Position numbers and translations under genes: made by a program
NCBI GenBank assembly: GCA_043228905.1
Contig: JBHGNT010000005.1
Location: forward strand, 186,001-250,000
Length of the DNA stretch: 64,000 nt
Direction: 5' to 3'
DNA from: Azolla caroliniana
Taxonomy: Eukaryota > Plantae > Polypodiophyta
The notes under the pieces: generated by a model
Seen by the model: only the letters and a program-made list of their open reading frames with translations
Databases searched by the model: none
Told to the model about the DNA's origin: nothing
In this document: positions 16,972 through 61,784 of the stretch, piece by piece
Position numbering within the stretch: position 1 is the stretch's first letter
Layout: every line of letters starts with the position of its first letter

Positions 16972-19558
16972 TCAGTATGTGTAGCCAGCCACAAACATGC
17001 CTTTCTTGGCTTCCTCGCTCTCGCCCTCTGCAGAGTATTTCCCCAATTGAGCAAGAGAATTGGCCTTGGCTCTCACAAGTAGGCCTTTCTGGGCAGCCTC
17101 CACATTTTCAGGGAGCCCACCCCATGTCTTAAGCACGGTGTTTTGCAACGCTCGGGCATACGAGAAGGACACGTGCCATGGGTTGGGGGATTGGTTCATC
17201 GCGTTCAAATTCAAGGTTGCTTCAACCTCAGATTGGCCACCAGATAAGAACTGGGATCAAACAAGAAATGAACACATGCTTAGACGTGAGTTGATAACTG
17301 TATGAAGAGCAAATAAAACACAAACAAATGTAAAACATGACAATTGTTGCATCCACACCTTCACTCTGATTCTGGTAGCTAATTAGCCTACTCTACCCAT
17401 AGTTATCCCCTATTTCTAACAGCCTTAATTAACAAGTCTACTGTACTGCTAAAAAATGTAGTTAACGTTGTACGCTCATAAAATGACTCTTGTTGAGATC
17501 TAGACAAATTATAGGAGAACTTCATTCATGAAAGATTTTGACGTGTTTATATCTCACACTCAATAAACCATCGTCACTTACCATGATGCCAGGCACAGCA
17601 GGGGGAACTCTCCTCTTGAGGAGGTTGAGGGTATACTGAGCAACTTCCTCTGGTGTTGCCCTCACTTTGCACTCTGCACCAGGTGTCACCATGCTTGGCT
17701 TCAACAAGATACCCTCATATACCACGTTGTTCTTGGCGAGGAAATAGAACACCTCGTTCCACACCTTCTCAGCCACCACTGAGGTTCTTTCAATGCCATG
17801 TTCACCATCCAAAAGGACCTCGGGCTCCACAATAGGAACCAAGCCATTTTCCTATACAGACATGCTTATTAGTGCCAAGATTTAGATCTAACATCGGTAC
17901 CTAAGGTGAATAGATCTTCCAAGGCAAAATGAGGCTAATTATGAGCTGGTTTGTCCAAATGTCCCATATATCACATTTACCTGAGAAATGGAGGCATATC
18001 TTGCAAGACCCCATGCAGCTTCCTGGATCGCCAACTCAGATGGTCCGTTGGGAATGCTGATGACAGTTCTCCTGCATTGCAAATCAGGTCATGTTATATT
18101 ATTCATCAGACCATGTTTGATATAGTACATATTAGACATCAAGTGCGATCAATATATAAACCATGACAGCATGATCAACACACATTCATGAAACAAAGAC
18201 ATACGAATACATGCAAAATTATATGCATCCTAACCATGCTAAGCATGCTCTATGTATCATATACAAAGCGAGCTTTATGACAGAATACTGGGAAAAATAA
18301 GCGAATACCATTTGGCAAAGCGAGCTCCCTGCTTATAGTATTCAGCAGACCGGGAGGCCAATCCATCAAGTCCTTGGCACCATGATTCATCGTTGGAACC
18401 AGACAAAGGAACAAGACCCTTTATTTTTTAACAAGCAAAAGTAGTTGGAATAAGTTTCACAGAGAAAAAAAATGAAATCTTAATGTAATTATAGATGGGG
18501 TACAATCAAACACACCTTATCAACTTTGATACCGGGGGCAATTCCTTGATCCTTCAGGCAGTCAACAAACTTCTTGCCATCAAGGGTAGATTGGTATAGG
18601 GTCTCTTCGAAGAGGATAGCTCCAGAGATGTAGCTTCCAAGGCCAGGGGTGGTGACAAGGAGCTGGCGGTAGGCTTGGCGGTTAGCCTCAGTGTTCTCCA
18701 AACCAATGGATGCGAGACGCTTGCCACATGTAGCATTCGACTCATCCATAGCCAAGATACCGCGGCCAGGTGAAGCAATGGATTTCTACAGTGGAAAAGT
18801 TCATCATTGTACATAAGTGCACATGTACACATACTTCATATTTCACATATGGGTGTAATGTGGATATATAAGAGCACATCATCCAAAATGCTTTGCATTA
18901 CATATATAGCACCTAATCCAAACAACTTCTCTTTACCTACACACATACATCATGTTGAGCATGAAAGTGCGTACTTACTTAAGGAGCCAAGGCACATCAT
19001 CCAAACGATTTCTTTACAAATTTATATGACAAACATATTATATACAAGGGAACACATAATCCAAACGACTTCTCTACATACACCAGAATGTTCTAAATAA
19101 GAAACGTACATGCAGCATACGTCGTTATGTTCAACATAAGAAATAGCTTATCTGCATACACATCATGTTCTGCATAAGAAGTGAATTTCGTATATAAATA
19201 AAATGTCCCACATGATGGCACATCATCCGAACAAGTTCTGTTACATGTACATACACCATGTCTGTACTCACACCCATACATACACATGTTTAAAACACAA
19301 CTTCTGTACACACATACATGCTTGGATAAAGCACAGAAAGCTTAATACGCTCACGAAAGAGAGCAAAAGAAGGGAACGATGATTGCATCGAAAGCTTACC
19401 GCGGTCTTGATGAGCTCCTCGGTGTAAGCTCCAGCCCTGATGGGCAGAGGAGAGAAGGTAGCAGAGGATGAGGAATTCACTGAAGCAGCAGGCTTCAGGG
19501 ACTGCCCAAGGAACTGGGAAGATGTGAGAGAAACAGCGGGCTTCATCAAGGCAGCCAT
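16972..19558 (-). CDS. FBA: Fructose-bisphosphate aldolase class I, plastid, 6 exons, about 392 aa
   Basis: Exons 19400-19558, 18516-18785, 18309-18418, 17981-18071, 17582-17851 and 16972-17250 (1179 nt, in frame). Ser-rich transit peptide; motifs [56 protein letters not shown]; C-terminal GYTY. Confidence 0.97.
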
Positions 19559-19667
19559 GGCTTGAGGAACACACGGGCTCTCTGTTTCTACTCTGTTCTT
19601 CTTCTTCTTCTTCTTCTCTGGTGCGTTGGGAGGGTGAGAGTGAGAGAGTTGTGTGTTTTTGTGGAGA

Positions 19668-19772
19668 TATATATATATATAGCTGCAATGGAAACCATTG
19701 AAATGTTTGGATGGCTCTCCTTTAGCCCCTTCCGGCTTTTGCATTGTGTGGCTTTTAGACTAACTAGATAAG
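19668..19772 (-). promoter_or_regulatory. Aldolase core promoter: TA-repeat TATA element and I-box-like GATAAG
   Basis: (TA)n at about 19668-19681, roughly 110 bp upstream of the ATG. GATAAG at 19767-19772 is common in light-regulated promoters. Motif match only. Confidence 0.45.
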
Positions 19773-22247
19773 AGGAACAGGGCCTCCCCTGGGTCCCCCC
19801 CTCCCCTCTTGTTATCCCTACCTTTCTCTCCCTCTGCCTCTCCATTCTCTCGGCTCGATTCACCACTCAAGTTGTGGCCACTAACCTTTCAGAAGCTCAC
19901 GCTCATCGTGACCCTTTTTCACACTCTCAGGGATCGCCCCACATTCCACATGGATCCGATTTTATCCTGTATATGGGAGCACTCATGTATGCTGGAACCG
20001 CACAATCAAGTTCGAAGTGGCCCGCCTCTCGTGCTTAGCTCGCTTTTCACGCCGTCGACCCTTGCACTAGGTTCATGTGATGTCGTGGCAATAGACAAGG
20101 TTTGCCAATCCAATCTATATGCATGCTACACACGCAATGGTTACATTGATATGAATCTACAAATAGGCCCATTTGCACATGGATAGCATTGCTCACGCAT
20201 ACTTCAGACATTTATGTCTAGAGCATAAGATCTATTGGCAATGTTAGGCACTTGATGCAATGCGTGATGCCTTATGTGTCAAGTCCGAGTAGATTATGTG
20301 CATGATGGTTATCTCCTACATTGTTCATACTCTCTCAGACATGCACTATAGCAAAAATCCCTCCATTGCGTTTTGGTGCACAATGGTGTGCTTGACTATC
20401 ATCGAGAGAGTATGTTAGACGCAATCCATCAATCATGTAGCCTTGTCCTTGTTATGTTCATCATCAAAGATTTTGCATGGATCTGATAAACAAAAATGGG
20501 AACATGTAAAGGAATATTCTTACTACATTCTCTCATACGTAAAAAAGAGAGAGGAGGGACTAGGTTTTAGGGTCGCCCTCATTTTTATTTACAACCAAAT
20601 TTATTACATTTTTACATGACTGTTTTTATCATTGTGAAGGGTTAAACTAATGGTATAGATATTCCCTTTATGCAAAATATGTAAATTGTTGGTTTGAACA
20701 TGATATCCTTGGAAGTAAACCTCATTTTTTAACCCAACTATGTCGAGCGATGCACATCTATTTTGCACCACATCCCATTTAAGCCTCATGGTTGCATCTA
20801 TATTAGTGGAGTTGAAATTGGACCTATATTTAGATTCATATGATTGCGTTAATATCGGCCCACTTTGGGCTCATAATACATATCCATGTTTATATATCAC
20901 AAGCAATCAAAGCCTAGCAACGGTAAAGACGTCAATTATTGTAAACAAAGAAAGTGCAACCTAAAATGAAGCCTTTTCCATGATTTTGAGGTAGAAAATA
21001 TGTACTTGAATTCCTCGAGACTTCCCATGCTGGGTAGGTGCAACGATAGAACGTATCCACATTCGAAAGTGTGTTGAAGAGTTTAAGTTTACAATGGTTA
21101 TAATAAAGTTTATTTTCATATCTCCAAAATTGTAGCAGTGGTAATATTATTTCATTGCGTTATTAATGGTTCAAAAGAACCAACAATAATCCATAGTGTA
21201 TAAAAGAGACAGTGACTTTGTGATGACAAATGTTAGGAGATAAGATATTGACCAACTTCTACCATTAACATTAGAAATTAATTTGGTTGGGAATGTTTTC
21301 CATTACAAAAACGGCTTGGAAGATTTTTGGGATTAGGAGTGTGAAAGTCAAGAGCATAAGGTCGGGTTTAAACCATTAGACCGATTTCTCAACTTATTAG
21401 ATTGTTTAGATTTGTATTGAAAATTTTGTGACGAGGATGTTGTACACATGAGATCCATGAAGTAAACGGGTTACTTGATTATTGGTTCCTTGCGTGTTTA
21501 ATACTTAATTCAAAACATTGTTATGTGTATGTGATAACACCATTTGCTTTTTTGTGCTTGATGGAAGGAATGTAAGACTAATAAATCCATGTATATGTAT
21601 ACAAATATAAATTTTATGATTGCGGATCGTCAGCGCTGCACGAGGTAGAGGCTACAATGTAATGTAAGGAGACGTCAATTTTTTAGAGGAATTGCACTTA
21701 CATACTTACCTATAAAAGACTTCATTATAAAAAGAACAACATGTATATACGTCATTAGCCACACGAGGCGCAATGAGATTGGGACTACGATAAATCACAC
21801 ATGGCATGCTTTCCTTGATCGTATATTGAAACATAAAATCAATTCAACGCCGAGACATCGGAAAAAGAAGCACATATATTTACCATCAATGGAATTGTGC
21901 GACAACAATTGGTACACAAATCATATCATGTAGCCGGGAATTTGCGCAACAACATTACGGGATGGAGTTATGCTGGATAAACCATACGCGAAGTTTATTT
22001 CTATGGTGAAAGACGAATTTGTGCCATTTTTTTCCGAGGTGTAATGCTGGACACATCAATGTAGATTTGGGGCATGGTGGCCACATGAGACTCTATCTAT
22101 CTATCTAAGTTCTAACTTCTAACATATGCCGGATTCTTCCATCCACCCATACCCATGTGGGAGGGGGGCACATTTTGATAGGTGACACTTCTCTCTCTCT
22201 CTCATGAGGAGAACGACTTTGGAACAGATAACTTCCCAATCCCAGGA

Positions 22248-25013
22248 ATGAACACAGTCAGTGGACATCCGTGGATCCATGCCATATCAGTATCAGATGA
22301 AAAGTCTCAGAAGCTCTATCAGCTTCCCAGCTCTGCATCTACTGTAAATCTGAATTCATTCCATCTAAGAGCACCAGAAATACATGGAAATGGGCAGCTG
22401 TCTATGGATCACAGAGGATCTCTAGGCCTCGTAGAGTTGATACCACCGTCAGTAGAAAGTCTCATAGAAACACTACAAGAATGTCAAGGGAAGAAAGATC
22501 TCATCTATGTCTATATAATTCTATGTAGCCATGGTTTGGAAGGTTGTAAAGCTATTGGAAACTACCTGATTCCTCTGTTCCTAGAGTATGGAAACGTATT
22601 GGGTGCACATCAAATCTTCAGTAGGTTGGTTTATAAGAACGAATATACTTGGACTTGTCTCATACAAGGATATGCACAAAGTGGAGATGTAAACCATGCA
22701 TTTTGCTTGTTTACAAGCATGTGGGAAGATGACGTTCAGCCTTCTGTGCATACATATACAGCTTTATTGAATGGTTTTGCGAAGCAAGGGTGCATAGAAA
22801 GTGGTCAAATTATTCATACTGAAGTTGTTTGCAAAGGTTTCGATGGTGATGGATTCATCTTGAATAGTTTGGTGGGCATTTACACAAAATGTGGACTATT
22901 TCAAGATGCCAAACAAGTGTTTAGTCAGATTCAGTATCCAGATGTGGTTTCGTGGAATGCATTAGTGTCGGGACTCATTGAGCACGGCCTCAATGAAGAA
23001 GCTCTTGAATGTGTGGATCAAATGAAGCTCAATGAGGTCACTCTCAATGCAATCACGTATGTATGTAGCTTAAAAGCATGTAGTAGTATGAGAGCCTTAT
23101 GTAAGGGCCAAGCAATGCATGATGATGTGATCAAAGGAGGATTTGAAAATAATACTTTTATATGCAATGCTCTCATTGACATGTATGTGAAATGTAATGC
23201 AGTTGTCGAAGCAAGAGAAGTGTTGGATGCGATGAAAACTTGTGATATAGTTTCATGGAATTCTCTTATGGGAGGATATGCTGAACAGAGTCAAGCTGAG
23301 GAAGCATTACAATGCTTGAAAGAGATGGCATTAACGGGAAGATCGGAAAACAATGTTACTTTCCTTTTGGCTTTGAAGGCTTGTAGTAGTGCTGGAAATA
23401 TAACAAAATCCCTGGAATTACACATGGAGATTAGCAAAAAGGGATTTGAAAATGATCTCTATATTGGTACTGCTTTAATAGCCAATTATAGCAAATGTGG
23501 TTCGCTTATTGATGCATGTAATGTATTCTATGGCTTATATGAACGTAGTATTGTGGCATGGAACACACTGATATCAGGATATGTAGACAATGGGTATGGT
23601 GAAGAAGCACTTCTCTGTTTTGAAGAAATGTTAAATGAAGGCGTTGATCCTAGTGTCACTACCTATGTTTGTGCTTTAAAAGCATGTGGGATCATAAGAG
23701 ACAATGACAAAGGGTATCGATTGCATGCTCGTATTGTGAGAGAGAAATTGGAATCCGACCCTTTTGTCGGTAGTGCTTTAGTTTATATGTATATGAAATG
23801 TGCCTTATATTCGGATACATTAGATGTCTTTGAAGACCTTCCAATTAAAGACATTGTCTCATGGAATACGTTGATCAACGGATATGCTGAGCATGGTCTT
23901 GGAAAGGAAGCTTTAGAGCATTCCAAAAGTATGCAACTTAAGACTGTGATTCCAAATGCTATCACTTTTGTCGGCATTTTGAAAGCGTGTGGGAACATCA
24001 AAGATATAGTCAATGGTCATGAAAACCATAGTGAAATTATTAGAAAAGGGTTTGATGATAATATACTAATTGAAAATGCTTTGCTGAACATGTATGCAAA
24101 GTGTGGAGCACTTGTTGAAGCACAATATGTGTTTGATATGATGCAAATCCAAGATGCAACATCACAAACCACTTTGCCTGAGGGTTATGCTAAAAATGGA
24201 TCATTGCTCAATGGACAAGAAATGGTCAACAAGCTTTCAGCTCAAGGCATTGTGTGTGCATGCACATCACTTATTTCAGGTTATGTTGAATATGGCTTCA
24301 CTGAAGAAGCAATGATCAATATAGAGAGGATGCAAGTGGAAGGTTTGTGTTTGGATGCTGCAATGTTGGTCTTCATTTTAAAGTCTTGTGGCAAGGAAGG
24401 GGCCATTGAGGCAGGAAGAGAGATACATACAATGATTATCAAACGAGGGCTTGAAAGGGAGGTCTTTGTTGGTAACACTTTAGTGGATATGTATGCTAAG
24501 CATAGCCTACTTTCAGAAGCATTGGTTGTCTTTGATGGAATAATGGAAAGAACTGTAGTCTCATGGAATGCTTTGATTTCAGGTTATGTGCGCCTTGGAG
24601 AAAGTGAACATGTTTTTATGTTGTTTGAAATGATGCTAAAAGAAGGTATAAAGCCGAGCCGAGCATCGTTTCTTAACGTTCTCACCACTTGTAGTCATAT
24701 GGGCCTAGTAGAAATGGGCTATCGATACTTAGAATTGATGAAGCACTATGGTGTTGCACCCACTACAGAAGTTCACAATTGTATGATCAACCTTCTTAGT
24801 CGTGCGGGACGGTTGGGTGAGGCCTTTTCATCATTCAATCAAATGGATACTCAACCTGATCTTATCACATGGAAAACACTTATGGCCGGTTGCCAAAAAT
24901 GGAGCAACATAGAGCTTGGGAAGGAAGTGTTCAATCATGTGTTGGGCTCAGAGTTTGACCATCCAGCTACATTTATCTTGATGTCCAATACCTATGTTGA
25001 TGCATGCATTTGA
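22248..25013 (+). CDS. PLS-class pentatricopeptide repeat protein ending in a partial E region, no DYW
   Basis: Intronless ORF (first in-frame ATG at 22248) with repeated P-L-S triplets (VVSWNALI..Y, TYVCALKAC, GNALIDMYxKCG). Then L2/S2 (VLTTCSHMGLVEMG, NCMINLLSRAG) and E1 (PDLITWKTLMAGCQ), stopping at FILMSNTYVDACI*. Confidence 0.93.
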   Translation: MNTVSGHPWIHAISVSDEKSQKLYQLPSSASTVNLNSFHLRAPEIHGNGQLSMDHRGSLGLVELIPPSVESLIETLQECQGKKDLIYVYIILCSHGLEGCKAIGNYLIPLFLEYGNVLGAHQIFSRLVYKNEYTWTCLIQGYAQSGDVNHAFCLFTSMWEDDVQPSVHTYTALLNGFAKQGCIESGQIIHTEVVCKGFDGDGFILNSLVGIYTKCGLFQDAKQVFSQIQYPDVVSWNALVSGLIEHGLNEEALECVDQMKLNEVTLNAITYVCSLKACSSMRALCKGQAMHDDVIKGGFENNTFICNALIDMYVKCNAVVEAREVLDAMKTCDIVSWNSLMGGYAEQSQAEEALQCLKEMALTGRSENNVTFLLALKACSSAGNITKSLELHMEISKKGFENDLYIGTALIANYSKCGSLIDACNVFYGLYERSIVAWNTLISGYVDNGYGEEALLCFEEMLNEGVDPSVTTYVCALKACGIIRDNDKGYRLHARIVREKLESDPFVGSALVYMYMKCALYSDTLDVFEDLPIKDIVSWNTLINGYAEHGLGKEALEHSKSMQLKTVIPNAITFVGILKACGNIKDIVNGHENHSEIIRKGFDDNILIENALLNMYAKCGALVEAQYVFDMMQIQDATSQTTLPEGYAKNGSLLNGQEMVNKLSAQGIVCACTSLISGYVEYGFTEEAMINIERMQVEGLCLDAAMLVFILKSCGKEGAIEAGREIHTMIIKRGLEREVFVGNTLVDMYAKHSLLSEALVVFDGIMERTVVSWNALISGYVRLGESEHVFMLFEMMLKEGIKPSRASFLNVLTTCSHMGLVEMGYRYLELMKHYGVAPTTEVHNCMINLLSRAGRLGEAFSSFNQMDTQPDLITWKTLMAGCQKWSNIELGKEVFNHVLGSEFDHPATFILMSNTYVDACI

Positions 25014-25278: not shown

Positions 25279-28200
25279 TGTTAATAATTAGGTAATTAAC
25301 TAGGGTTAATTAGTGACTAATTATGTGAGTAGTTAATGTTACGGGCATGACCATATAATATCCTGTAGTGAGAATTTACTGTAGTATTCTATACATGTGG
25401 ATAAGTGTGAGGGTTAAACGAGAGTGTAAAGAAGGGGAGGATTACTTTTAATCCTCGGGATTGAGACAACCCATTAGGCCAAGTGTGAACTTGCTTGGGG
25501 GCCTTGGGTCTTGCTATAAATATGAGGCCTAATTACCCTCATTGGATCATCTTTTGACTATGTCGAGATTCTGACGTTGTGGTGGGTCAATTCTTGTAGC
25601 GAGCGCGCCAACACTAGGTATAACTCGACACCACGACGGTGGTATGGGACGCCGATCGAGGCTCGAGCCCATCTCGATCCCTTCGCTTACTCTCAAATGT
25701 TATTGGTTTACCATCTTGATATAAGACAACACCTATAGCATAATCACTTGCATCGGTTTCAACTTCAAAAGGTTTTGAAGGATTAGGTAAAATAAGCGAA
25801 GGAGCCTTGCACACCAGGTCCTTGAGTTCCTTAAAGACGAGGTCTAGTGTAGCATTCCACACAATAGGTTTTGTAGACTTACGCACTTGACCTTTTAGAA
25901 GATCAGTAAACGATGTTGTCAATTGGGAGTAATTATGAAGAGATTTTCGTAAAAACCCAACAAAACCAAGGAATGATTGAACTTCTCAAATATTACGAAG
26001 AGTGGGCCAAAGTTTGACTTTCTCGATGCGAGAAGGATCAATTTCAACTCCTCATTTGGTTATGAGATGTCCAAGATTAGTAATTGATTTCTTGAAGAGC
26101 TTGCATTTTGAGATCTTCGCGTAGAATTGCTTGTCGCGCAATGTTTGTAAAACAAAGTGGAAATGTTTAGCATGTTCTTCTAATGTTCGGCTATAAACTA
26201 AAATATCATCCAAGAAAATAATGACGAATTTTCCAAGTTGTTCTCGGAAAATGTCATTCATTTCTTGTTGAAATGTGGTTGGAGCATTGGTCAAACCAAA
26301 AGGCATAACCAAAAACTCATAATGGCCATAACGTGTACAAATTGTTGTTTTAGGAGCATTGTCCTCACTTATACGAATTTGATGGTAGCCCATACGTAGA
26401 TCAAGTTTCGTAAAATACCATGCTCCTTGGAGATGGTCAATTAGATCGTCAGTCTGAGGCAATGGATATCAATTCTTGATCGTCACTTTATTCAAGCGTC
26501 AATAATTAATACACATAGGCCATGTGCCTTCTTTCTTTTTTACCAAGAGAACAGGTGCACCCCATGAAGATTTACTATAACGTATAAAACCCATTCATAA
26601 ATAGTCCTTCGGTTGCTTAGATACCTCATCCTCTTCGGATCGACTTAAGTAATAAGGTGGTATACTTATTGGTGCAACGCTAGGTACAATATATATACGA
26701 TGGTCTATATTACGTTTAGGAGGTAACCCATGCGGTAGTTCACTCGGAAAAACATCATGAAAATCATTTAAGATTTTATCGAGTTGTTGTTGTTCAAAAT
26801 ATGTCAATTGACTCGAGACGTGATCAATATTATAAACGTAAATGTTCGGATCAAGTACACAATAAAATAAAGACGAACAAGACAACTCATATATTGATGG
26901 AGAAGAAACAATCAAAAGGGATTGTTTATTTACACATTGAATAAAATGAGTACAATCGTTTAGTACAAAGGAAATGGAATTATTTGCAGTTATACATGCG
27001 CTCAAAACATGGCGCCATTATCTTTATGGAAATTGTTTTGTGGTAACTATGGACCACGAGTCCTTGAAATATTTTTGTGACCAACAAGACTTGAAAGGTC
27101 GTAAGGCACGATGGGCTAATCTTATCTAGGACTTTGATTTTTCCATATGATATCGTAAAGGTTCCATGAATACTATTGTTGATGCACTAAGTCACATCTG
27201 TGAAGTTAACATGCTAGGTTCACTGAAATAACATCAGATCTTTATGATCACCTTCGAGGAAAGTATCCTGATGGCAATTATTTTGCGAAATATTGGGCAA
27301 GAGTTGAGTTTGGGACAGACACCACCACATCCTCGAAGGAATCCTTCCACATTGCTAACGATCTGCTCTACCATAATGGGAAGGTTTGTGTTCCAGATTT
27401 GCCTGAGGTCAAAAAGAGAATTCTTTTTTAATGCCATGATGCACTCTCAACAAGGCACCCTGGAATACATTGTACACTCGTTCTCATCTCCACTCATCTC
27501 CACTCAATTCTATTGGCCTAAGATACATCCTAACATACATAACTATGTGACTAAATATCACTAATGCCAAGTTAAAAAAGCCGAGCGACTTAAGGCCGCA
27601 GGACTTTTACATCCCTTGGACATTCTCAATAATAAGTGGGAAAGTATATCCATGGATTTTATTGTTAGCCTTCGTTGCACCCAAAAAGGCCATGATGCCA
27701 TCTAGGTTGTGGTTGATAGAGTAACTAAAATGGCCAGATTTATTGCTATTAAAACCACTGTAACAACTCCTGAATATTTCGTTGACGAGTTATTTCATTT
27801 TTATGGGTTACCGATGGATATCGTGAGTGATCAAGATCCAAAGTTTACTAGTGACTTCTGGACGCAAGTCTTTAAGAAGTTAGAAACTACGTTGAGCATG
27901 AGCTCCACAGATCATCCTCAATCCGATGGACAGACAGAATGAGTAAATCAAATTATCGAGGACATGCTTCGAGCATACGTTGGTGCAAAACCAACAAAAT
28001 GGGAACGTTATCTCCCAATTTTGGAGTTTGTTTATAACAGCTCCAAGCATACGTCGACGAGATATAGTCCTTTTATGTTGATGTATGGTTTTCAGCCACG
28101 AGCCCCAATTGATGTTAATATACATCACGATGAGTTGCGAAGTACGCAAAACTTTCTTCGGGATATGCAAGATATGTTGCATATTGCACGAGATAATATA

Positions 28201-29574
28201 AAAACAGCTCAAGATAGAGCGCGTTTTTACGTCGATCATAATAGGCAACCTCGTGTATTCAACCCTAGACAGAAGGTATTTTTACGTGTACCTCACAAAT
28301 ACTAAGACATTGTCTACGGGTAAGTGCGCTAAGTTACCCCCACGGTTTTGTGGACCTTTTCAAGTCCTCAAATGCATCGGTTCATTAGCCTATCGTCTCG
28401 CTCTTCCCAATGGCGTTGAAATTCATCCAATCTTCCATGTAAGTCGTCTAAAAGAACTTCTAGGTTCAAGCAACAATACAGTTACAACTAAAACTCTGGT
28501 TACTTCTGAAGAATTATCTTCTAAACCACATGTACCAGAAAGAATTCTCGATGTTAAAACAAAAAAATTGCGTACTAAAATAATCCAAGAATTTAAAATT
28601 AAATGGATGGATAAATCTCTCAAAGATGCCACATGGGAACGTGAAAATACTCTTAGAACTAACTTCCCTAACTTTTCATTGCAAGAGTGCAATGTTTTAA
28701 AGAGAGGGAGTATGTTACGGGCATGACCATATAATATCCCGTGGTGAGAATTTACCGTATTATTCTATACACATGGGCAAGTGTGAGGGTTAAACGAAAG
28801 TGTAAAGAAGGGGAGGATTACTTTTAATCCTCAGGATTGAGACAACCCATTAGGCCAAGTGTGAACTTGCCTGGGGGCCTTGGGTCTTGCTATAAATAGG
28901 AGGCCTAACTACCCTCATTGGATCATCTTTTTGACTACTTCGAGATTCTAACGTTGTGGTGGGTCAACTCTTGTAGCGAGCGTGCTAGCACCAGGTACGA
29001 CTCGACGCCACGGCGGTGGTATGGGACGCTAATCGAGGCTTGGGTCTGTCTTGATCCCTTCGCTCGGGGGTGGTCTGGTGGATCAACACCCTTCTTTCTC
29101 TCCCTCTTTTCTATCTATCTATCTTTTATCCTCATCATATGCTTACGTTAGACCATAACTATAACAATTAAGTAGTGGAAGATTATGTGATATGTGTGCG
29201 TATGTGTGTGAGAGGAAGAGAGAGAGGAAGTTACACTTATGAACAATAATATAAATGGGGGATGATTAACAAGAGTGTAGCTAAAGACCTTTCCTCTATA
29301 TTAATAAGCATCAAAATACAAAGATATCCTCAATGAGGTATATCTATATCTCATGTGCAAAGGTGCACATGTGTGAGGAGAATATAGGTACAAATGTATA
29401 AGTCCTATATTAAATGAACCTGTCAGTGGAGGATCTAGAATGTATCTCACTTACGTACAAAATCCTATTTAAAGCTTTAAGGTCAACACACCAATTAGAT
29501 TCTATCTAGGTAACTATTAAGTTACGTGGTTAACTAAATGGCTAAACTAAGTTTAGCTTGTCAATATCTCAACA
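25279..29574 (-). mobile_element. Solo LTR split by the nested gypsy element (parts 25279-25336 and 29167-29574)
   Basis: TGTTAA...TCAACA termini, 5-bp TSD CTATG/CTTTG. The rejoined halves are colinear with the solo LTR at 43011-43465. Orientation is inferred from a TATA-like TTAAATAGG on the minus strand. Confidence 0.8.
25337..29166 (+). mobile_element. Chromovirus-type Ty3/gypsy LTR retrotransposon, defective, with internal deletion and inversion
   Basis: TGTTA...TAACA ends, TSD GTTAA/ATTAA. 5' LTR 25337-25687 (truncated), 3' LTR 28713-29166, PPT AAAGAGAGGGAG at 28699-28710. RT (LDLRMGYHQI, MPFGLTNAP, FLDDILVYS) and RNase H N-part (ETDASDYAIG) on the minus strand. RNase H C-part (ALKTWRHYL), integrase (HPQSDGQTE, GPF) and chromodomain (PERILD..IKW...DATWE) on the plus strand. 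Stops and frameshifts throughout. Confidence 0.93.
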
Positions 29575-40032: not shown

Positions 40033-41481
40033 TCACTTATCTCTTGAGGATTCTGCGTATACCCACATTGAATATCTTGATTCAAACCCCTTACATTTTG
40101 TCAATCTTGTATCTGTCGTGTTTAAAAAAACATTTACAGACATTGCCTGTTTTCGGAGCTCTTCTATCTCATGTACGTGTTCCCACAACCCTGCATCAGC
40201 ATATATGCTGGACATGAGCACATATCCGGATCCATACCTAGGATTGATCTCAATTGCATTATCAAAACACTTCCTCCCCAGCTCTACATTGCCATGTTTT
40301 CTGCAAGAAGTGAGTAACGTTGTCCACCCTGCATCATGATTAACACGTTTGCTTGAAAGCAATTGTTCCGCTTTGCCTAACTCGCCTGACCTCGCAAGTA
40401 AGTCCACCATGCATATAATGTGATCCTCCGAAGCTATAATACCATAATGTCGCTCCATTAACTCAAAATAATATTGGCCCTCGATGAATAACCCTGCATG
40501 ACTACAAGCATTCAACAGACACTTGAAAGTTGTTCCATCTGGCTTCACACGTTCCCTTTGCATTTCCTCAAAGCACCTAATGGCCATCTCCCAATCATTA
40601 ACACTTCCATGTGCATTCATCATTGCTGTCCAAGACACCATATCTCTCTCCGATAAGCTATGGAACACTTGTTTACCCTCGTGAAGGAAGCCATGTTTGC
40701 CATACATGTCAATCAGTGCATTTCCGACAAACAAGTTCATATTGCATCCAACTTTCACCATCAAGGAATGGATTCTCTTACCTTCTTCTACTGCATTCTC
40801 ACATGCACATACCTTAAATAGACCAGAAAATGTGTGGGTATCTGGCAAGATGCCCTCAGTAAGCATTTCGTCAAAGAGAAATAGGGCTGCTTTATCAAAC
40901 CCATGTTGTGAATACCCTGTAATCATAGCATTCCATACGACCACATCTTTCACACTCATTTGATCAAACACGTCATTAGCCTCTGTCACACATCCACATT
41001 TCATGTACATGCCAAGCAACATACTACCGATATGCAAACTCATGTCAATTCCATATATGATGATGTCATTGTGGATTACTCTGCCATGCTGGAGCATCAA
41101 ATTAGTGCTACTAGCGCAGCAAGCCTTGAGAGAAGCCACATAGATGTGGTCATTTAGCTCCACATTGTTCATAGACCTTAAGCGATGGTATAGATCAATT
41201 GCTTCTTCACTCTTTCCACATCTTATATGCCCTGACATATATGCTTCCCAAGCATATATATCCGGATTACATGTTGTCAAGAAGACTTGTTTTCCTTCTC
41301 TTAAGCTCCCACAAATTGAGAACGCTCGGATGAGACCATTCCTGAGTATAGATTTTGAATACGAGCCAGAGTAGATGATCAACCTATGAAGCTTCCTAGC
41401 CATAGCTAAGTCTTTTTTTTTTATACAGTCTTGTAAGAGAGAGGAGAAGAAGACCTCCTCATTTCCATGCTCGTACATCAT
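40033..41481 (-). CDS. PLS-class PPR protein with E1/E2, no DYW, 482 aa
   Basis: Intronless ORF with P-L-S motifs (DVVVWNAMITGY, GNALIDMYGKHG, LLNACSHAGL, CMVDLLARSG), E1 (WTTLLTSCRKHGNVELG) and E2 (YVLMSSIYADAGLW), followed by a non-PPR tail. An upstream exon cannot be excluded. Confidence 0.9.
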   Translation of the reverse strand: MMYEHGNEEVFFSSLLQDCIKKKDLAMARKLHRLIIYSGSYSKSILRNGLIRAFSICGSLREGKQVFLTTCNPDIYAWEAYMSGHIRCGKSEEAIDLYHRLRSMNNVELNDHIYVASLKACCASSTNLMLQHGRVIHNDIIIYGIDMSLHIGSMLLGMYMKCGCVTEANDVFDQMSVKDVVVWNAMITGYSQHGFDKAALFLFDEMLTEGILPDTHTFSGLFKVCACENAVEEGKRIHSLMVKVGCNMNLFVGNALIDMYGKHGFLHEGKQVFHSLSERDMVSWTAMMNAHGSVNDWEMAIRCFEEMQRERVKPDGTTFKCLLNACSHAGLFIEGQYYFELMERHYGIIASEDHIICMVDLLARSGELGKAEQLLSSKRVNHDAGWTTLLTSCRKHGNVELGRKCFDNAIEINPRYGSGYVLMSSIYADAGLWEHVHEIEELRKQAMSVNVFLNTTDTRLTKCKGFESRYSMWVYAESSRDK

Positions 41482-43010
41482 GTCCTGAGGTCCTCTATTT
41501 CATCATCACAGCTCCTGATTTGATTGAATCACATTTCCTACAGATTCCCTTCTGAAACTACAATCACAACAATATTACCAGAGAATGATTTTACGATTGA
41601 TGAGATGTTACTCCATGATAATGAGATAAATGAACCTTGGCCTTTAAATTCCCCCCATAACACATATGGAATGGATGTGCTACAACATATCTGTCATTTG
41701 GGAGCGGGAAAGAGAATCTATTATTGCATTAGAGAATACATACAATGATTGGAGAAATTAAGTGCAGGGTCCTCGAGAAAGACCTTTCGGAGACTTCAGT
41801 AATACCGCTGCTTCTGTGTGGGGTGAATGTATATGTGAATAGCATCCCTATGTTGGCTTCCAAAGAGTAAGAAAATGTCCATAACCGTTTTCTTACAAAA
41901 TTGATCTTAAGTCTACAAACAAACTGCTTGGACGGGGCGAGATCACTTCGTATTGAGATCATGGTCACGGAAAAGGGTTGTTCAGTATATGCTTGAAGTT
42001 CAAACAAGTCCCTCGCATCGATTTTCTCCTGTAATGGCCTTCAGGAAACCCAAAATAGACACATAAAGGCAAAAGAGTTGTGTTTTGGCTGGATACAAAA
42101 TACGATAAAATGTTTTCGAATATGGGATGCATCACACTTATTTTTGAATACATCACTAAACTCCATTGAGAACAATACCTTTTCGTAATACCAAATTATA
42201 ATGACAGAAGAAATTTTGGAGGTTCACACTTCATATAATATACTACATTTGTTGCACCTCCCTACAAACCCATATTGTTCAACAGATGAGGAATTTAGCC
42301 CATGCATTGTTACATGTTAGAGTTCATCCCATTGCTTGCCATATGAACCATTGCTTCATTAGAACATAGTTTCATACTCACATCAATGTGATGTAGGATG
42401 TTGGGGCACAAGTGATGAGACTAGTTGATTATGCACACAAGTTATCATACTATGGTACAATGTTTCGCCGTTTATCACATTTAACTACGCTTACTGCACA
42501 TTTTCAACCCACCCCAACCCATGCACAAATTTCTCTCACAATCACAATGTGCATTCACTAGATGCAACATTTGTCAATAAAGTTCTTGATCATATAGAGA
42601 CACTCCTCACTTTGAGAATTTGTGGTATGGGACATGTTGTTTTCACAGTGGAAAGCATATGTCCCATATGAAGTGTGTCCGTACCCAGTTGGAGGCCACC
42701 ACTGTAAATCTAACCCACTTAAGAAACCTTTAATGTTACCTGCCACAAAGACCACCTTCACTATGACTCCGTCACAAAAACACTTCACCATAAACCTGTC
42801 ACAAAATCATCGATGCACATAATGGAAAGCCCACACTCTTGATGCCACTGTCTTCCATAACCCATAAGGTTATATAATTCACAAACAAAGAAAAATGTGA
42901 AACAAGGAGCCATCATAAATCTTCCAATTTGGATTAGGGTTTCCTGTGCCAATGTCTTTTCTTCATGTGTGACACAAAGTCAATGTTGTTAAAATACATG
43001 TTAAATCAAC

Positions 43011-53252: not shown

Positions 53253-53259
53253 TATATAA
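53253..53259 (+). promoter_or_regulatory. TATA box of the MIRNA transcription unit
   Basis: CCTATATAAG about 135 bp upstream of the hairpin, followed by a pyrimidine-rich and (CA)n leader. Confidence 0.6.
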
Positions 53260-53393
53260 GGCTCGGAGCACCTCTCTTCTATGTAAATTGATCTCTTCAT
53301 ACTTGTAAATCCATCTGCCATATAGATATAGCATATACATATACACACATATTTACACACACACACACACACACAAGTTCTTATATTGATGTA

Positions 53394-53639
53394 GTGGAGC
53401 TTCCTTGCTATCCAACGGTGGATGGAGGGGGAGGGGGTGATGGGTTGCTGCCATCTCGGCCGTCCAATTGCCTCGATCTCCACATGACTCAATAATCTAT
53501 GTATCTGCCATTGATGAGAGCAGAACAATACTTGTAAGCGAGGCATTTGATCGGTTGAGGTGGGAGCTATCCGACCCACCCTTCATTGTTCTTGAAAGAA
53601 ATCATTCATATTCCTCCCTTGGAAAGAAGGGAGCTCCAC
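53394..53639 (+). ncRNA. MIR319: MIR159/319-family microRNA precursor with a variant mature sequence
   Basis: 3' arm TTGGAAAGAAGGGAGCTCCAC (53619-53639) pairs with 5' arm GTGGAGCTTCCTTGCTATCCAA (53394-53415). A second, loop-proximal duplex (GCTGCCATCTCGGCCG..TGCCTCG / CGAGGCA..CGGTTGAGGTGGGAGC) gives the two-duplex long-foldback architecture diagnostic of MIR159/319. Confidence 0.9.
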
Positions 53640-56600
53640 AATTTTTCTTTTTCATTTCAATGCTTTTCTATGTTCAACTCCTTAACCCCTATTCGGGTTT
53701 AACATTAACATGATTAGGGCTTTATATATATGATCTCGTTTTCTTTTGTTTGCTTTAAAATGTAGTCTTGAAGTTAATTGGTAGTGATGGTTAATCGGTT
53801 AATAAATATGGGAATATGTATATATAAATATTAACCAATGATCCGCGGAAATGTACTTGATTTTGCAGCATTTCCTCAGAAGGGCAGGGAAATTCTGGTT
53901 TCTCGGCACTTCCATAATGTTTGGATATTCCAGGAATACCTCAAAACAATAGCATTTAAGTTTCATTATCACACGAGTAATTTGTTTCAATGTTCTTTAG
54001 GGTTTACTATGCTACTAACACATTTGAGTTTAATAAATTTAAAAACTTTATCACAGAAATACCTCAAACCAATAGCTTTAGGGTTTCATTATCACATGAA
54101 TAATGTGTTGCAATATTCTTTGAGTTTAATCAAAGTTAAAAAATTAAATCTTAAACTTCAGAGGGTTTTTATTAGGATAACTAGCATTGGACGCAGGCTT
54201 GTTCGATCCAGACGAGGGACACACAATACTGAAATAGGTAGGGTTTCATGATTCACATTTCGGGTGTTTGATGTCTACAAAGTTTGCTCCTATATTGATG
54301 TCTTGATAACTTCTAGTGAGGGTTTCAAAATTTGCAATCATCGGTTAGGTTTTAGCTGTTTTGGCTTGTAAGGTTGATTGGGTTAACATTTTGACTAGCT
54401 AAATGCAATGGTTGGAATCTTGGATTGTCAACCCATGACTCAAATGTTGGTCACGTTTTATATCTGCATATAATTGTAATTTTAATAACATCACATGCAA
54501 ATATTATAATGTCAAATTGATTCACATTTTCTACTTTGCAGCTCGAGAGTATGTGACAGAGTGAGTGGCACCGCGAGTAGTGAGTGTGGAACCTTCCGAT
54601 TGCGGCCTGAGCTAATGAAAATCAGCTACAAACTGTTGAAGCAAAGCTGCTGGATTAACTCCACCAATTAATTGGGGATTTACCTGGAGTTAATTATCAT
54701 TAACAACCTTTTAGTGGGCAATTTGCATTCCATTTAACACCACTTAGGAGACGTGGTTGAGCATTTCTATCCAAAGTATAATATATGATCCATATATGCA
54801 TAGTAGTAATCCCTTCTTTTGTAGAAATGCATATTTCCAACTCTGTCCGTGGGACAATATTGAAATCTTTCTACTTGGCAATATGAAACCCTTCTTGTTA
54901 AAAGACATAAATGTATCTTATACTCTAGTTTTTCGTGGATTTGAACTTAAGTTATTGACATAATATGGCAGTAGCACTAATTGTCATGACGAATGCCTCT
55001 CAATTGCTTTGACATTTGATCGTTTATGACTTTATGTGGTGGGCTGAGACAAGACGATCCGATGCTAAATGCCCTAAACCCTAAAGCCTCCACCCAAAAT
55101 AGTTGTAATGCTAAACATCACATTAGAACATTATCTATAAGATACTATGTCTTTATCATAATGCACTTTCTTTTTTCCCTTAACAAATTTGATAGTAAGA
55201 ATATTTGCACTTAGAAAGGTACAGTAGATTTTTGGAAAAAAAGAAAAGAAAAGAAAGAAAGGTACAATAGATCAATTGGGATCTCGTGGATGCTACCTCA
55301 CTGGATCACAATTGTCTCGAGATCGTATCCGCATGGCTTGCATCTTGATTACCAAGCATGGGCTATATTGGTTGTGAATTTCATCTCTAGAGACATGTTT
55401 GTCGAGATTGTCCCATGGCACGATATATCTCTTCTTGTTCTATGTTGAGGCTCATACAATACAAGGTTAGGTACCATTTGGTTGCTAGGGAGTTCCATCT
55501 TCCATTATAGCTACATAATCTCCTTAGGTGCAACCTATTATTCCATGTCGATTCAACTATAATTTAGTCCATCCAAGAAACGTGGGTACATTGGGAATCT
55601 CATATTGAGGTCTATACCGAGGCAACCTAGAAATTCTTGTTTGCAGTCGTACTTTGGATTGGCATCATAACCATTTTTGCTTTCTCCTTGAAGCACAGGG
55701 AGACAAATAGTTTTATGCGAATCTAGTGTTACATGAGCTATGTAAATTTTTGGTATGAGATGGGCATTGATTCATGTTCCACCAATGTTTCCTGATTAAG
55801 GAATATGAAGAGGTTTCACCTCACCCAATCCCATGTGGGCAATCATATATGAAGAGAGATGATGTTGAGCAATGTCCTAATTATTAGTAATTCCTCTAGT
55901 AGAACTCTAACTCGCCCAGGAGGAGCGTATGGATTTCTAAATGCTTATTCCCTCCTTTTCCAAATATGCTATATGATGAACCCCATGGTGGTAGAGGTAT
56001 TTACGAAGATAGATACCCTATCTCGAGAAAGGGAAGTAACCTTTCTTTCCCCAAAATATCCAACTATTTTATTAAGCTGATTTTGGAGTAAATGGCATTC
56101 AATGTGTGGTTGAGTGATCATTTTTGGATTATATTTGAATAATACATTATAGACCTCCCTTTGTCATTTGCACCATGATTTTATTGGATTAAGCATCATG
56201 ATTTAGGACTATACTATAGACTGCGAATAATGCAACATTGCAATATGTTTGATGAGATACCGAATTAGTTAACCATGGAAGGTGTGTGGAAAAACATGAT
56301 AACAATGATCAATTTGTCTGTATGGTCTCATCCACACATGGTCAAAATATCATCAACAAGCTAATAACCCAAGGACTTGGATGTGACATAACATCCCATT
56401 TCTCTTCATGTCGTTTAACTTTGTAGTTTTTCATGTTAGCCTACATCCTCCTATAAATGTGTAATGAATCAACATTCACGTGTTGTAAATGGCATTTTGC
56501 AAGGTAGCCATTTTCCTCATGTGGGGTTGCATGCACTTATCTCTTTCATAAGAGAGAGATACCACTAATCAATAAGTGAGGGCTTTCCAATATCTATTTA

Positions 56601-59375: not shown

Positions 59376-59636
59376 CAAACTGCCAGTTTAACCTTAGAAA
59401 GAGCTACCTTTATGGATGTTGTGAGGGTACATCCTGGAACATCAAGCTTGAATACTCCATTTATAAGATGGTATTTAGAAGTGTTAACTGAGTGTAATGG
59501 GGTGAAATATATAACAAATATGGATGATAAAAAGGTCATTCTGATTGAAAGAGGTATGCTTCTCTTTTTTTAGTACTTAATTAGACAAGACACATCACTT
59601 GTTCCGGTATTAGAATTGTCACACATTCTTGCCATT

Positions 59637-61784
59637 ATGGAGCTAGATTCATGTCATTCCACCTGTGATAATAGTATTATCTCCGCTATAAGGACACTGC
59701 ATAATGGCAAGGACATAAGCACACCGGATATATGCTTATATCCATGGGTTGATTTGGAAAGGCATGGATCAATCAAGCAGACCATGACTATGCAGGAGCT
59801 ATATGCATTATATAACTCCTATGATCGAAGGGAAGGCAACGAATGGTTGAGTTCTAGTAATGGATCTCAAGAATCCACTGTCTCTGACGATGACTTGAGT
59901 TTAACATTGGGTTTAAGAAACTTATCTAAGCCTTCGGAAGGGAAGGAACACTCATCTGTGACAATACAAATGGAAGGTACAAAGAAAGGATTTGTGTCTA
60001 TGGATTTGGGACTAGGCTTGATGATATCCACTGTAGGCCCTGGTTTGATGATGAAAAAGCCAACATTGGTAGAGAACTCCTTTCTAGAAGCTTCCTCATC
60101 TTTGAGTGAGGCTTGGTGTTTGGGTGAAGTTATGAGAAGACAACAAAATAATGATGATGATTCACATCCCAAGAATTCACAATGCTCAGAAGGAATGGAG
60201 GTTTATAGTGTGAAAGAACCTCTTGATAGTGTACATGGTGAAGACGATTCTGAGATTGATCTTCAACTTGGTTTATCAGGCTCTTTGGGATCAAATGGTT
60301 TCACACCACCAGAATCAAATGGATTTGCACTTGGTTGTACTGCTAGCAGTAGAGATGCGCCTCCACTGTCAGTGTCAGGGATGGGTTTCCAACCTTATGA
60401 GCATACTCCAATTGTGGATGAAGGTTCAACATCTGCCAAGGCAGTGAAGTCTGGAGGAGCATTTGTGAGAACTTCATCGCAAACTGCAAAAAGTTCTCTA
60501 AGAAAAATGTCAAAGAGTCGACTAGATGCATCTGAGTCAGGTAATATGGTTTATGAGGGGATGAACATTGCCTCCTCACATGGGGGAGTTTGGTCTTCTA
60601 TCAACAATTTGATGTTTGATGAAGCATTTTGTTCATCAAACAACTTCAGCCACAAAGAAATGCATATACATGATGAAAGTTTTGGTTCTTCTAACAATCA
60701 TTTAATCCAAAAAGCTATTCTATTGCATGATGAAGCTTTTGGGGTAATGTCAAGTGAGAGGGCCCCAAAGGCATGCAAGTTCGAAGGATGTGGAAAAGGT
60801 GCCCGAGGTGCTTCAGGTCTTTGCATTGCACATGGAGGTGGAAAGCGTTGCCAACGATCTGATTGCAATAAGGGTGCCGAAGGTCGAACCATGTTTTGCA
60901 AAGCACATGGGGGTGGTAGAAGGTGTCAAAACTTGGGATGTATCAAAAGTGCTGATGGTAAGACTGACTTTTGCATTGCACATGGTGGAGGCAAAAGATG
61001 CATACAAGAAGGATGTGGTAAAGCGGCCAGGGGGAAGTCAGGACTATGTATACGTCATGGAGGTGGTAAGAGATGCCAGAGAGAGGGATGTAATCGTAGT
61101 GCTGAGGGATTCTCAGGTCTATGCATTTCACATGGAGGTGGACGTCGGTGCCAATATCCCCAATGCGGGAAAGGTGCTCAAGGAAGCACCAAGTTTTGTA
61201 AAGCACATGGTGGGGGTAGGAGGTGTGAGTTCCTAGGGTGTACCAAAGGTGCCGAAGGAAGTACCCCATTGTGCAAAGCTCATGGTGGTGGCAAAAGATG
61301 TTCCTTTGGAGGAGGTACATGTTCCAAGAGTGTTCACGGGGGTACATTATTTTGTGTGGCACATGGGGGCGGGAAGCGTTGCATGGTGCCAGCATGTACC
61401 AAGAGCGCCAGAGGAAGAACAGAGTATTGTGTGAGGCATGGAGGTGGCAAAAGGTGCATGTTCAATTCTTGCACTAAGAGTGCCCAAGGTAGTACTGACT
61501 ATTGTAAAGCACATGGAGGAGGGAAGAGGTGCCAAAGGGAGAGTAAAAAAGAAGGATCTAGTCTTTGTGGGTATAAAGTGGGTTCCTCTGGGGTTTGTTG
61601 CTCAACATATGGTATTCTGGAAGAGAGGTTTGGTACTAATAATTGTGGACATCATAGTTTAAATACCTTTGCGGCCTCTAGCCTGAATACTGTAGTGTAT
61701 GATGAGATTTCGTCGACTGGTCTTGAAGAAAGAGTTCATGGCGGAGGGCATTTTATGGCACTCCTTGACGAGCAAGGATGCTAA
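59637..61784 (+). CDS. Cys/His-rich repeat protein (WRKY19-like zinc-finger repeats; At1g64140/At5g09670/At5g64550-like 'loricrin/hornerin-like' family)
   Basis: Ten tandem C-x4(6)-C-x-K-x-A-x-G-x4-C-x2-HGGG-[KR]R repeats, the conserved VDEGSTSA box, LxLxL motifs and C-terminal ERVHGG. First in-frame ATG at 59637; a spliced start at 59412 is possible. Confidence 0.9.
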   Translation: MELDSCHSTCDNSIISAIRTLHNGKDISTPDICLYPWVDLERHGSIKQTMTMQELYALYNSYDRREGNEWLSSSNGSQESTVSDDDLSLTLGLRNLSKPSEGKEHSSVTIQMEGTKKGFVSMDLGLGLMISTVGPGLMMKKPTLVENSFLEASSSLSEAWCLGEVMRRQQNNDDDSHPKNSQCSEGMEVYSVKEPLDSVHGEDDSEIDLQLGLSGSLGSNGFTPPESNGFALGCTASSRDAPPLSVSGMGFQPYEHTPIVDEGSTSAKAVKSGGAFVRTSSQTAKSSLRKMSKSRLDASESGNMVYEGMNIASSHGGVWSSINNLMFDEAFCSSNNFSHKEMHIHDESFGSSNNHLIQKAILLHDEAFGVMSSERAPKACKFEGCGKGARGASGLCIAHGGGKRCQRSDCNKGAEGRTMFCKAHGGGRRCQNLGCIKSADGKTDFCIAHGGGKRCIQEGCGKAARGKSGLCIRHGGGKRCQREGCNRSAEGFSGLCISHGGGRRCQYPQCGKGAQGSTKFCKAHGGGRRCEFLGCTKGAEGSTPLCKAHGGGKRCSFGGGTCSKSVHGGTLFCVAHGGGKRCMVPACTKSARGRTEYCVRHGGGKRCMFNSCTKSAQGSTDYCKAHGGGKRCQRESKKEGSSLCGYKVGSSGVCCSTYGILEERFGTNNCGHHSLNTFAASSLNTVVYDEISSTGLEERVHGGGHFMALLDEQGC

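What the first reader, a model, noticed from the sequence alone, without database searches (positions are those of the whole stretch)
53394..53639. MIR159/319-family locus with a rewired 5' region: UUGGAAAGAAGGGAGCUCC
Seen: a 246-nt foldback with a TATA box upstream and the family's two stacked duplexes. The predicted mature arm differs from canonical miR319 (UUGGACUGAAGGGAGCUCC) at positions 6-7 (CU to AA). The star arm also differs from the canonical ..CUUCAGUCCA and still pairs (one bulge, one A-A mismatch), which suggests selection rather than decay. Known: position 6 varies across miR159/319, but the U at position 7 is nearly invariant and pairs with the Ser TCA wobble base of the GAMYB site GAGCTCCCTTCA.TCCAA (ELPSxQ). 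Inference: this variant is perfectly complementary to GGAGCTCCCTTCTTTCCAA, still E-L-P-S-F-Q but using a TCT codon. It could be a miRNA co-evolved with one GAMYB or TCP paralogue, or redirected to new targets, giving a lineage-specific regulatory module.
Basis: partly seen in the sequence, partly recalled or inferred. Interest (0 to 1): 0.82.

Follow-up and report, generated by a model that had tools for sequence, protein, structure and literature searches.

The report
Fern miR159 retuned to SPOROCYTELESS-like genes
This fern gene encodes a variant of the ancient plant microRNA miR159/319 that was already sequenced in many ferns, and its two changed letters are predicted to shift its aim from the usual MYB genes to SPOROCYTELESS/NOZZLE-like repressors, which would give ferns a dedicated switch on relatives of a gene that starts spore formation in flowering plants.

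Summary
The hairpin is real (fold z -4.55; Rfam MIR159 E 1.6e-9, below the gathering score) and the AA is not an assembly error: the mature arm is unchanged in 8 of 8 runs laid, from five organism labels. The window is a fern (inferred). The exact 21-mer (53618-53638) is already listed in the supplement of You et al. 2017 for 10 of 25 species; AA-type forms occur in 15 of 17 leptosporangiate ferns, mostly at thousands of reads. So it is fern-wide, not a local novelty. The best target is not GAMYB or TCP: the matching site encodes E-L-S-S-F-Q, found in 8 of 8 fern and 7 of 7 lycophyte NOZZLE/SPEAR proteins retrieved. The variant scores 1-2 penalty points there, canonical miR159/319 5-6.5; on a Lygodium MYB site the order reverses (5 against 1). 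The site is older than the variant, so the miRNA likely adapted to it. The same supplement assigns a NOZZLE cleavage to this variant in Selaginella. I found no main text that states the specialisation; cleavage in a fern is untested. The scan had not noted this before.

The parts
53253..53259 (+). TATA box (TATATAA), likely Pol II core promoter of the pri-miRNA
   Evidence: sequence; 141 nt before hairpin base; no difference listed in the two runs covering it; start site untested
53394..53639 (+). MIR159/319-type bi-duplex precursor hairpin, 246 nt
53397..53418 (+). predicted miRNA* (22 nt, assuming 2-nt 3' overhangs); U53409 pairs with the new A8 of the mature arm
   Evidence: pair table; no substitution in the 6 runs that cover it; ends inferred
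53445..53466 (+). loop-proximal conserved arm, 5' side (ACR5)
   Evidence: Rfam alignment; one substitution among relatives, G:U to A:U at 53458
53477..53545 (+). variable terminal loop region
   Evidence: 12 variable positions in 69 nt plus many insertions among relatives
53550..53571 (+). loop-proximal conserved arm, 3' side (ACR3)
   Evidence: one substitution, G:U to A:U at 53560
53618..53638 (+). mature miRNA, 21 nt, CUUGGAAAGAAGGGAGCUCCA, AA at positions 7-8
   Evidence: identical to sequenced small RNAs in You et al. 2017 supplement; unchanged in 8 of 8 runs

Best explanation
This is a fern MIR159/319 gene whose 21-nt product, already sequenced in many leptosporangiate ferns, likely serves mainly to silence SPOROCYTELESS/NOZZLE-like (SPEAR) repressor mRNAs rather than GAMYB. 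Shown here: hairpin anatomy, conservation of the arms, identity with published reads, and near-perfect pairing to a coding site that reads E-L-S-S-F-Q in NOZZLE-family genes. From family knowledge: Pol II transcript, loop-to-base dicing through the inner duplex, AGO loading and cleavage opposite positions 10-11. Inferred: A7 reads the first base of the Phe codon (NOZZLE-like) where GAMYB-type sites have Val, and A8 reads the TCT wobble base; together they remove two seed mismatches on the NOZZLE-like site and add one or two on GAMYB-type sites. The site is older than the variant, so a duplicated MIR159/319 gene was probably retuned to an ancient secondary target near the base of the ferns, leaving canonical paralogues for GAMYB/RKD.
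For: Exact 21-mer in 10 of 25 species of You et al. 2017, e.g. 56,927, 23,306, 13,686, 11,181, 8,957, 7,594 reads; AA-type forms in 15 of 17 leptosporangiates and 0 of 4 other ferns in the 2 of 12 file parts read. 24 of the 36 target rows seen (43 exist) carry the E-L-S-S-F-Q site, in 9 of 9 species seen. Scan for the complement gave 27 loci; 9 have the SPL motif 0.6-1.2 kb upstream on the same strand; both exons tested hit Pfam NOZZLE PF08744 at or above its cut-off. ELSSFQ in 8/8 fern, 7/7 lycophyte, 7/10 bryophyte (+1 ELPSFQ), 1/4 gymnosperm, 0/14 angiosperm named NOZZLE/SPEAR proteins. Penalty: variant 1-2 vs canonical 5-6.5 on 4 NOZZLE-like sites; 5 vs 1 on the Lygodium MYB site; 4 vs 2 on an Azolla ELPSVQ site. 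Further fern forms have A at position 13, which perfects the NOZZLE-like pairing and would mismatch the Pro codon of GAMYB-type sites. Table S6 assigns a degradome cleavage in a Selaginella NOZZLE-domain gene to the same variant (3' U form). miR159 cleavage of NOZZLE/SPEAR mRNAs is validated in Arabidopsis and maize.
Against: No cleavage data from any fern. The Selaginella reads (47) did not map to that genome and equal sequences abundant in other libraries, so they may be library bleed and the cleavage may come from a canonical miRNA (inference). One Azolla ELPSVQ site with TCT is matched equally by variant and miR319 (2 vs 2), and canonical-type reads in Azolla caroliniana are few (253 and 26 vs 7,594), so the variant may also be the main GAMYB regulator there. 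Dijkhuizen et al. list only MYB targets for Azolla miR319. Table S5 transcripts are unannotated; their NOZZLE or GAMYB identity is inferred from the encoded peptide. The Pleopeltis study lists no AA form. Only one annotated fern MYB site was available, from Lygodium, where no AA-type mature was seen. The nucleotide sites were found with the pattern itself (ascertainment). Targets from the window's own genome could not be searched.
Confidence: 0.7

Rival explanations
1. The variant is the general-purpose miR159/319 of most ferns: it silences both NOZZLE-like and GAMYB mRNAs, and some GAMYB sites have drifted to TCT to stay in reach.
For: It is the most abundant miR159/319-3p form seen in Azolla caroliniana, Salvinia cucullata and Pteris vittata; an ELPSVQ site with TCT has only one internal mismatch; Azolla GAMYB mRNAs rise when 'miR319/miR159' fall.
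Against: Other ELPSVQ/DLPSVQ sites have two seed mismatches to it; canonical forms persist in ferns; position-13 A forms fit only the NOZZLE-like site.
Confidence: 0.2
2. One reading: the miRNA co-evolved with one GAMYB or TCP paralogue that carries a perfectly complementary ELPSFQ site.
For: TCT does occur in one Azolla GAMYB-type site.
Against: No perfectly complementary site among the 36 target rows seen; the only ELPSFQ protein found is a Marchantia NOZZLE-like protein; MYB-type sites keep Val after Ser.
Confidence: 0.05
3. An AA-type gene is older than ferns (present in the vascular or land-plant ancestor) and was lost in seed plants; the Selaginella reads are genuine.
For: The identical 20-nt site stands in moss loci and Selaginella transcripts; You et al. 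call the Selaginella read authentic.
Against: Unmappable, 47 reads, same sequence as abundant reads of other libraries; 0 of 4 eusporangiate ferns/horsetail show AA, 3 of 4 show only A7; no moss-like hairpin among the 27 loci.
Confidence: 0.1
4. Neutral drift or a decaying paralogue.
For: Rfam score is below the gathering threshold.
Against: 0 of 23 variable positions fall in the 45 nt of mature and star arms (p about 0.015); compensatory U in the star; high read counts in many fern orders.
Confidence: 0.02

Closest known systems
Fern miR159-3p isoforms of You et al. 2017 (PMC5569507; e.g. Aca-miR159-3p.29, Scu-miR159-3p.2176)
   Same: Identical 21-nt sequence; predicted sites listed in Table S5; a NOZZLE-domain cleavage assigned to the 3'-U form in Selaginella (Table S6).
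   Different: Listed only in supplements; the main text has no NOZZLE, SPOROCYTELESS or MYB mention and says only that miR159-3p is less conserved. No genomic hairpin or target shift is discussed in the sections read.
MIR159/319 type 1 bi-duplex precursors (Rfam RF00638; Li et al. 2011, PMC3118147)
   Same: miR*, ACR5, ACR3, miR partitions on one long stem; interior loop in the miR duplex.
   Different: AA at 7-8; longer loop and spacer; score below gathering.
miR159-NOZZLE/SPEAR module of angiosperms (Arabidopsis, PMC3467045; maize, PMC9804894; tomato, Buxdorf 2010, seen only as cited)
   Same: Same miRNA family and same target family.
   Different: There it is a secondary target of canonical miR159, described in a review as acquired in tomato; here a separate isoform fits it better than it fits MYB sites, and the site is fixed as ELSSFQ in seed-free plants.
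miR159 (GAMYB) versus miR319 (TCP) specialisation in Arabidopsis (as reviewed in PMC6724108)
   Same: Target choice split between paralogues by a few 5' bases.
   Different: A third branch, in ferns, pointing at NOZZLE/SPEAR.

Membership tests
MIR159/319 (RF00638) | Full-length match to the family model | tested here: inconclusive
   Model 1-196 matched, E 1.6e-9, but 48.9 bits is below gathering 74
MIR159/319 (RF00638) | Long stem with two conserved duplexes (miR/miR* and ACR5/ACR3) | tested here: met
   both ACR substitutions among relatives keep the pair
MIR159/319 (RF00638) | Mature arm on the 3' side, within a few bases of miR159/319 | tested here: met
   Differs from Pleopeltis miR319_v1 at positions 7, 8 and 21
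Plant miRNA | Precise, abundant 21-nt reads of the mature arm | tested here: met
   Identical reads published for 10 species; not from this locus or this organism directly
Plant miRNA | miRNA* reads with 2-nt overhangs in replicate libraries; loop-to-base processing | not testable with these tools
   Only contigs were available
GAMYB-regulating miR159/319 | Good seed pairing to the GAMYB site | tested here: inconclusive
   Penalty 5 on Lygodium MYB, 4 and 2 on two unannotated Azolla ELPSVQ sites
TCP-regulating miR319 | Pairing to TCP sites | not tested
   No fern TCP site was in hand
NOZZLE/SPEAR-regulating miR159 | Complementary site in genes with the NOZZLE domain | tested here: met
NOZZLE/SPEAR-regulating miR159 | Cleavage at the site in vivo | not testable with these tools
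   One published Selaginella row, of doubtful attribution; none for ferns

The most novel reading that the evidence does not exclude
Ferns evolved a third branch of the miR159/319 family, dominant in many species, that was retuned in steps (A7 first, then A8, in some lineages A13) away from GAMYB and onto an ancient site in SPOROCYTELESS/NOZZLE-like repressors, and this module gates the switch from sterile to spore-bearing growth.
Probability: 0.3. Interest if true: 0.75.

Novelty: new variant of a known kind. Interest (0 to 1): 0.5.

Why it matters
It suggests that the miR159-NOZZLE link, treated as a minor or acquired target in angiosperms, is ancient and became the main job of one paralogue in ferns. 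SPOROCYTELESS/NOZZLE starts sporogenesis in Arabidopsis, and what controls sporangium initiation in ferns is poorly known; a named miRNA, site and target family make that directly testable in Ceratopteris or Azolla. It also warns that fern studies that label these reads miR159/319 and assume MYB targets may be reading the wrong module.

Tried and rejected
No whole genome is held, so no scan for paralogues or targets in the same organism. No RNA holder listed; runs X16 and X19 are only guessed to be RNA, so their cover of the hairpin is not counted as expression. Main-text searches for the mature sequence found 0 papers and two unrelated papers; searches pairing fern, NOZZLE/SPOROCYTELESS and miR159/319 showed no listing that states the specialisation; only listings and the passages named were seen. 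miRBase and PmiREN could not be searched. Dijkhuizen supplements hold no mature sequence as text; Fig S8 there and Fig S8c of You et al. are pictures and were not seen, and may bear on which isoform they call miR319. PMC9122828 and PMC13434465 gave nothing. No target site with penalty up to 5 in the window apart from the arm's own complement. The L020 upstream ORF gave no Pfam hit and no match to a fern SPEAR protein; L015, L016 and L020 are not counted among the 9 SPL-motif loci. 14 of 27 scan loci look unrelated and were dropped as likely chance matches. The Rfam mir-297 hit is a CA repeat. The sigma-70 scan is irrelevant to a plant. Earlier findings of the scan: nothing relevant. Assembly error rejected.

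Full report
Observation. The window at 53394-53639 folds into a 246-nt hairpin of -107.4 kcal/mol; the 281-nt stretch around it beats 200 of 200 shuffles, z -4.55. Rfam gives no gathering-level hit in the window, but RF00638 MIR159 aligns over its whole length at 53385-53650, E 1.6e-9, 48.9 bits against a threshold of 74. The outer duplex has a bulged G53407, an A-A mismatch at 53624/53410, one G:U and an unpaired first C; the new A8 pairs with U53409. A second duplex lies near the loop. TATATAA starts at 53253. It is the only such arm in the window.

Not an error, and under selection. Of 23 runs listed I laid 8, from organism labels A-E (one may include relatives only, and the likely source sample was left out). 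The mature arm is unchanged in 8 of 8; the star in the 6 that cover it. Of 23 variable positions in 53386-53666, none falls in the 45 nt of the two outer arms (p about 0.015), 12 fall in the loop and 7 in the 3' flank; the two in the inner duplex both turn G:U into A:U. A metagenome locus, L007, carries the same arm and 2.5 kb of downstream DNA at 79% identity.

Organism. No genome is held. A window protein is closest to Adiantum among named hits (53%), ahead of Ginkgo (48%) and angiosperms (at most 46%), so the window is a fern (inferred).

Already sequenced. You et al. 2017 (PMC5569507; I saw passages, sections 13 and 16, parts 2 and 5 of 12 of supplement file 4, part 5 of 139 and row searches of file 1) list the exact 21-mer 53618-53638 in 10 of 25 species: Scu 56,927, Pvi 23,306, Des 13,686, Asp 11,181, Ani 8,957, Aca 7,594, Mpl 4,242, Cfo 873, Sml 207, Ova 39 reads. 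Forms with other 3' ends occur in Dpe, Hch, Sch, Cba, Pcu and, at 47 reads, Selaginella. Reading the codes against their Table 1 (the grouping of species is from my knowledge), AA-type forms are in 15 of 17 leptosporangiates (not seen for Lygodium and Vandenboschia in the parts read), 0 of 4 other ferns, 1 of 4 lycophytes. Psilotum (12,939 reads), Ophioglossum (734) and Equisetum (35) have A7 without A8. Low counts may be bleed between libraries: Selaginella and Azolla also carry small numbers of reads that are very abundant in Hch and Dpe (inference). The Pleopeltis study (PMC5426797; passages, tables, S2 Fig text, search of 12 supplements) lists only canonical forms.

Target. Table S5 has 43 rows for the exact 21-mer; I saw 36, and 24 share one site that reads E-L-S-S-F-Q, in 9 of 9 species seen. 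The transcripts are unannotated. Scanning metagenome contigs for the arm's complement, with one ambiguous base, gave 27 loci. One is the MIR arm (L007). Nine carry the motif PQRGLGVAQLEK 0.6-1.2 kb upstream of the site on the same strand: L002 and eight moss loci (L003 matches Sphagnum proteins at 98-99%). The two exons tested match Pfam NOZZLE PF08744 at 21.3 and 22.5 bits, cut-off 21.3. Three more (L015, L016, L020) have a fern-like site context but no such motif on the contig; 14 were dropped as unrelated. Among named full-length homologues, ELSSFQ stands in 8 of 8 fern, 7 of 7 lycophyte, 7 of 10 bryophyte (one more has ELPSFQ), 1 of 4 gymnosperm and 0 of 14 angiosperm proteins, most ending in an EAR-like LDLxL (the EAR label is recalled). 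Table S6 assigns a degradome cleavage in Smo10655, domain NOZZLE, to the 3'-U form of this variant, though those reads did not map to the Selaginella genome.

Fit. With a simple penalty (mismatch 1, G:U 0.5, doubled at 2-13, position 1 ignored), the variant scores 1-2 on four NOZZLE-like sites, where Pleopeltis miR319 and miR159 score 5-6.5. On the Lygodium MYB site the variant scores 5, miR319 1. On two unannotated Azolla ELPSVQ sites it scores 2 against 2 and 4 against 2. Forms with A13 in Osmunda (691), Ophioglossum (734), Hch and Dpe pair perfectly with the Ser codon of ELSS and would mismatch the Pro codon of ELPS. The same 20 bases stand in moss and fern-like loci; they were found by the pattern, but a six-codon peptide with 1,728 possible spellings would rarely match by chance, so the site is probably constrained as RNA and predates the variant.

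Mechanism. Shown: structure, conservation, identity with published reads, complementarity. From family knowledge: bi-duplex, loop-first processing (PMC3118147, passages). Inferred: one MIR159/319 paralogue was retuned in ferns to silence NOZZLE/SPEAR repressors, with GAMYB left mainly to canonical paralogues (0.7). The main rival is a dual regulator of both families (0.2): canonical reads are scarce in Azolla caroliniana (253 and 26), and Dijkhuizen et al. (PMC8386757; passages, section 23, part 1 of 10 of the PDF supplement) name only MYB targets for Azolla miR319 without giving the sequence as text.

Known context and novelty. miR159 cleavage of NOZZLE is validated in Arabidopsis (PMC3467045, passages) and of SPEAR1/2 in maize (PMC9804894, passages); a review calls GAMYB the only conserved target and the tomato NOZZLE-like target acquired (PMC6724108, passages and section 5); a preprint lists NOZZLE as a secondary family (10.1101/2022.09.07.507021, passages). 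The main text of You et al. never names NOZZLE. Nine searches showed no paper stating a fern isoform specialised for it; subscription journals, figures, unread supplements, miRBase and PmiREN were out of reach. The sequence is known; the reading is a new variant of a known module. Interest 0.5.

Noticed in passing
L007:2520-2612 versus window 53540-53610: L007 matches the window from the arm downstream but is unlike it 5' of 53611, while relatives' contigs keep that part; likely an assembly join to a second MIR paralogue with the same mature arm.
   Followed up: partly
L002, L015, L016, L020 at the site: L016 and L020 have the 5' flank of L015 and the 3' flank of L002, joined at an identical 21-nt site: probable assembly chimeras of two NOZZLE-like paralogues.
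   Followed up: partly
You et al. Table S5: Acam26605, Aspm9403, Aspm9406: A second predicted site for the variant recurs with the same sequence at about position 1,900-2,000 in Azolla and Alsophila transcripts; gene unknown, a candidate second conserved target.
   Followed up: no
You et al. file 4, part 5: Gleicheniales ferns carry further abundant miR159/319 variants (one at 726,135 reads in Hch, others above 15,000 in Dpe), so the family radiated more than once in ferns.
   Followed up: no
window 22182-25013 (+), 40033-41499 (-): Two long PPR genes, the second with an E motif.
   Followed up: no
window 59574-61784 (+): 736-aa ORF with nine WRKY19-type zinc-finger repeats, the nearest clear gene downstream of the MIR.
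   Followed up: no
window 25600-28800: Fragmented chromodomain-bearing LTR retrotransposon remains, with RT on the minus strand and SH3/chromo on the plus strand.
   Followed up: no
window 4638-5312 (-), 17522-19759 (-): FAM210-domain gene and exons of a class I fructose-bisphosphate aldolase.
   Followed up: partly
window 53320-53382: TA/CA microsatellite between the TATA box and the hairpin; length differs in another run of the same organism label.
   Followed up: no
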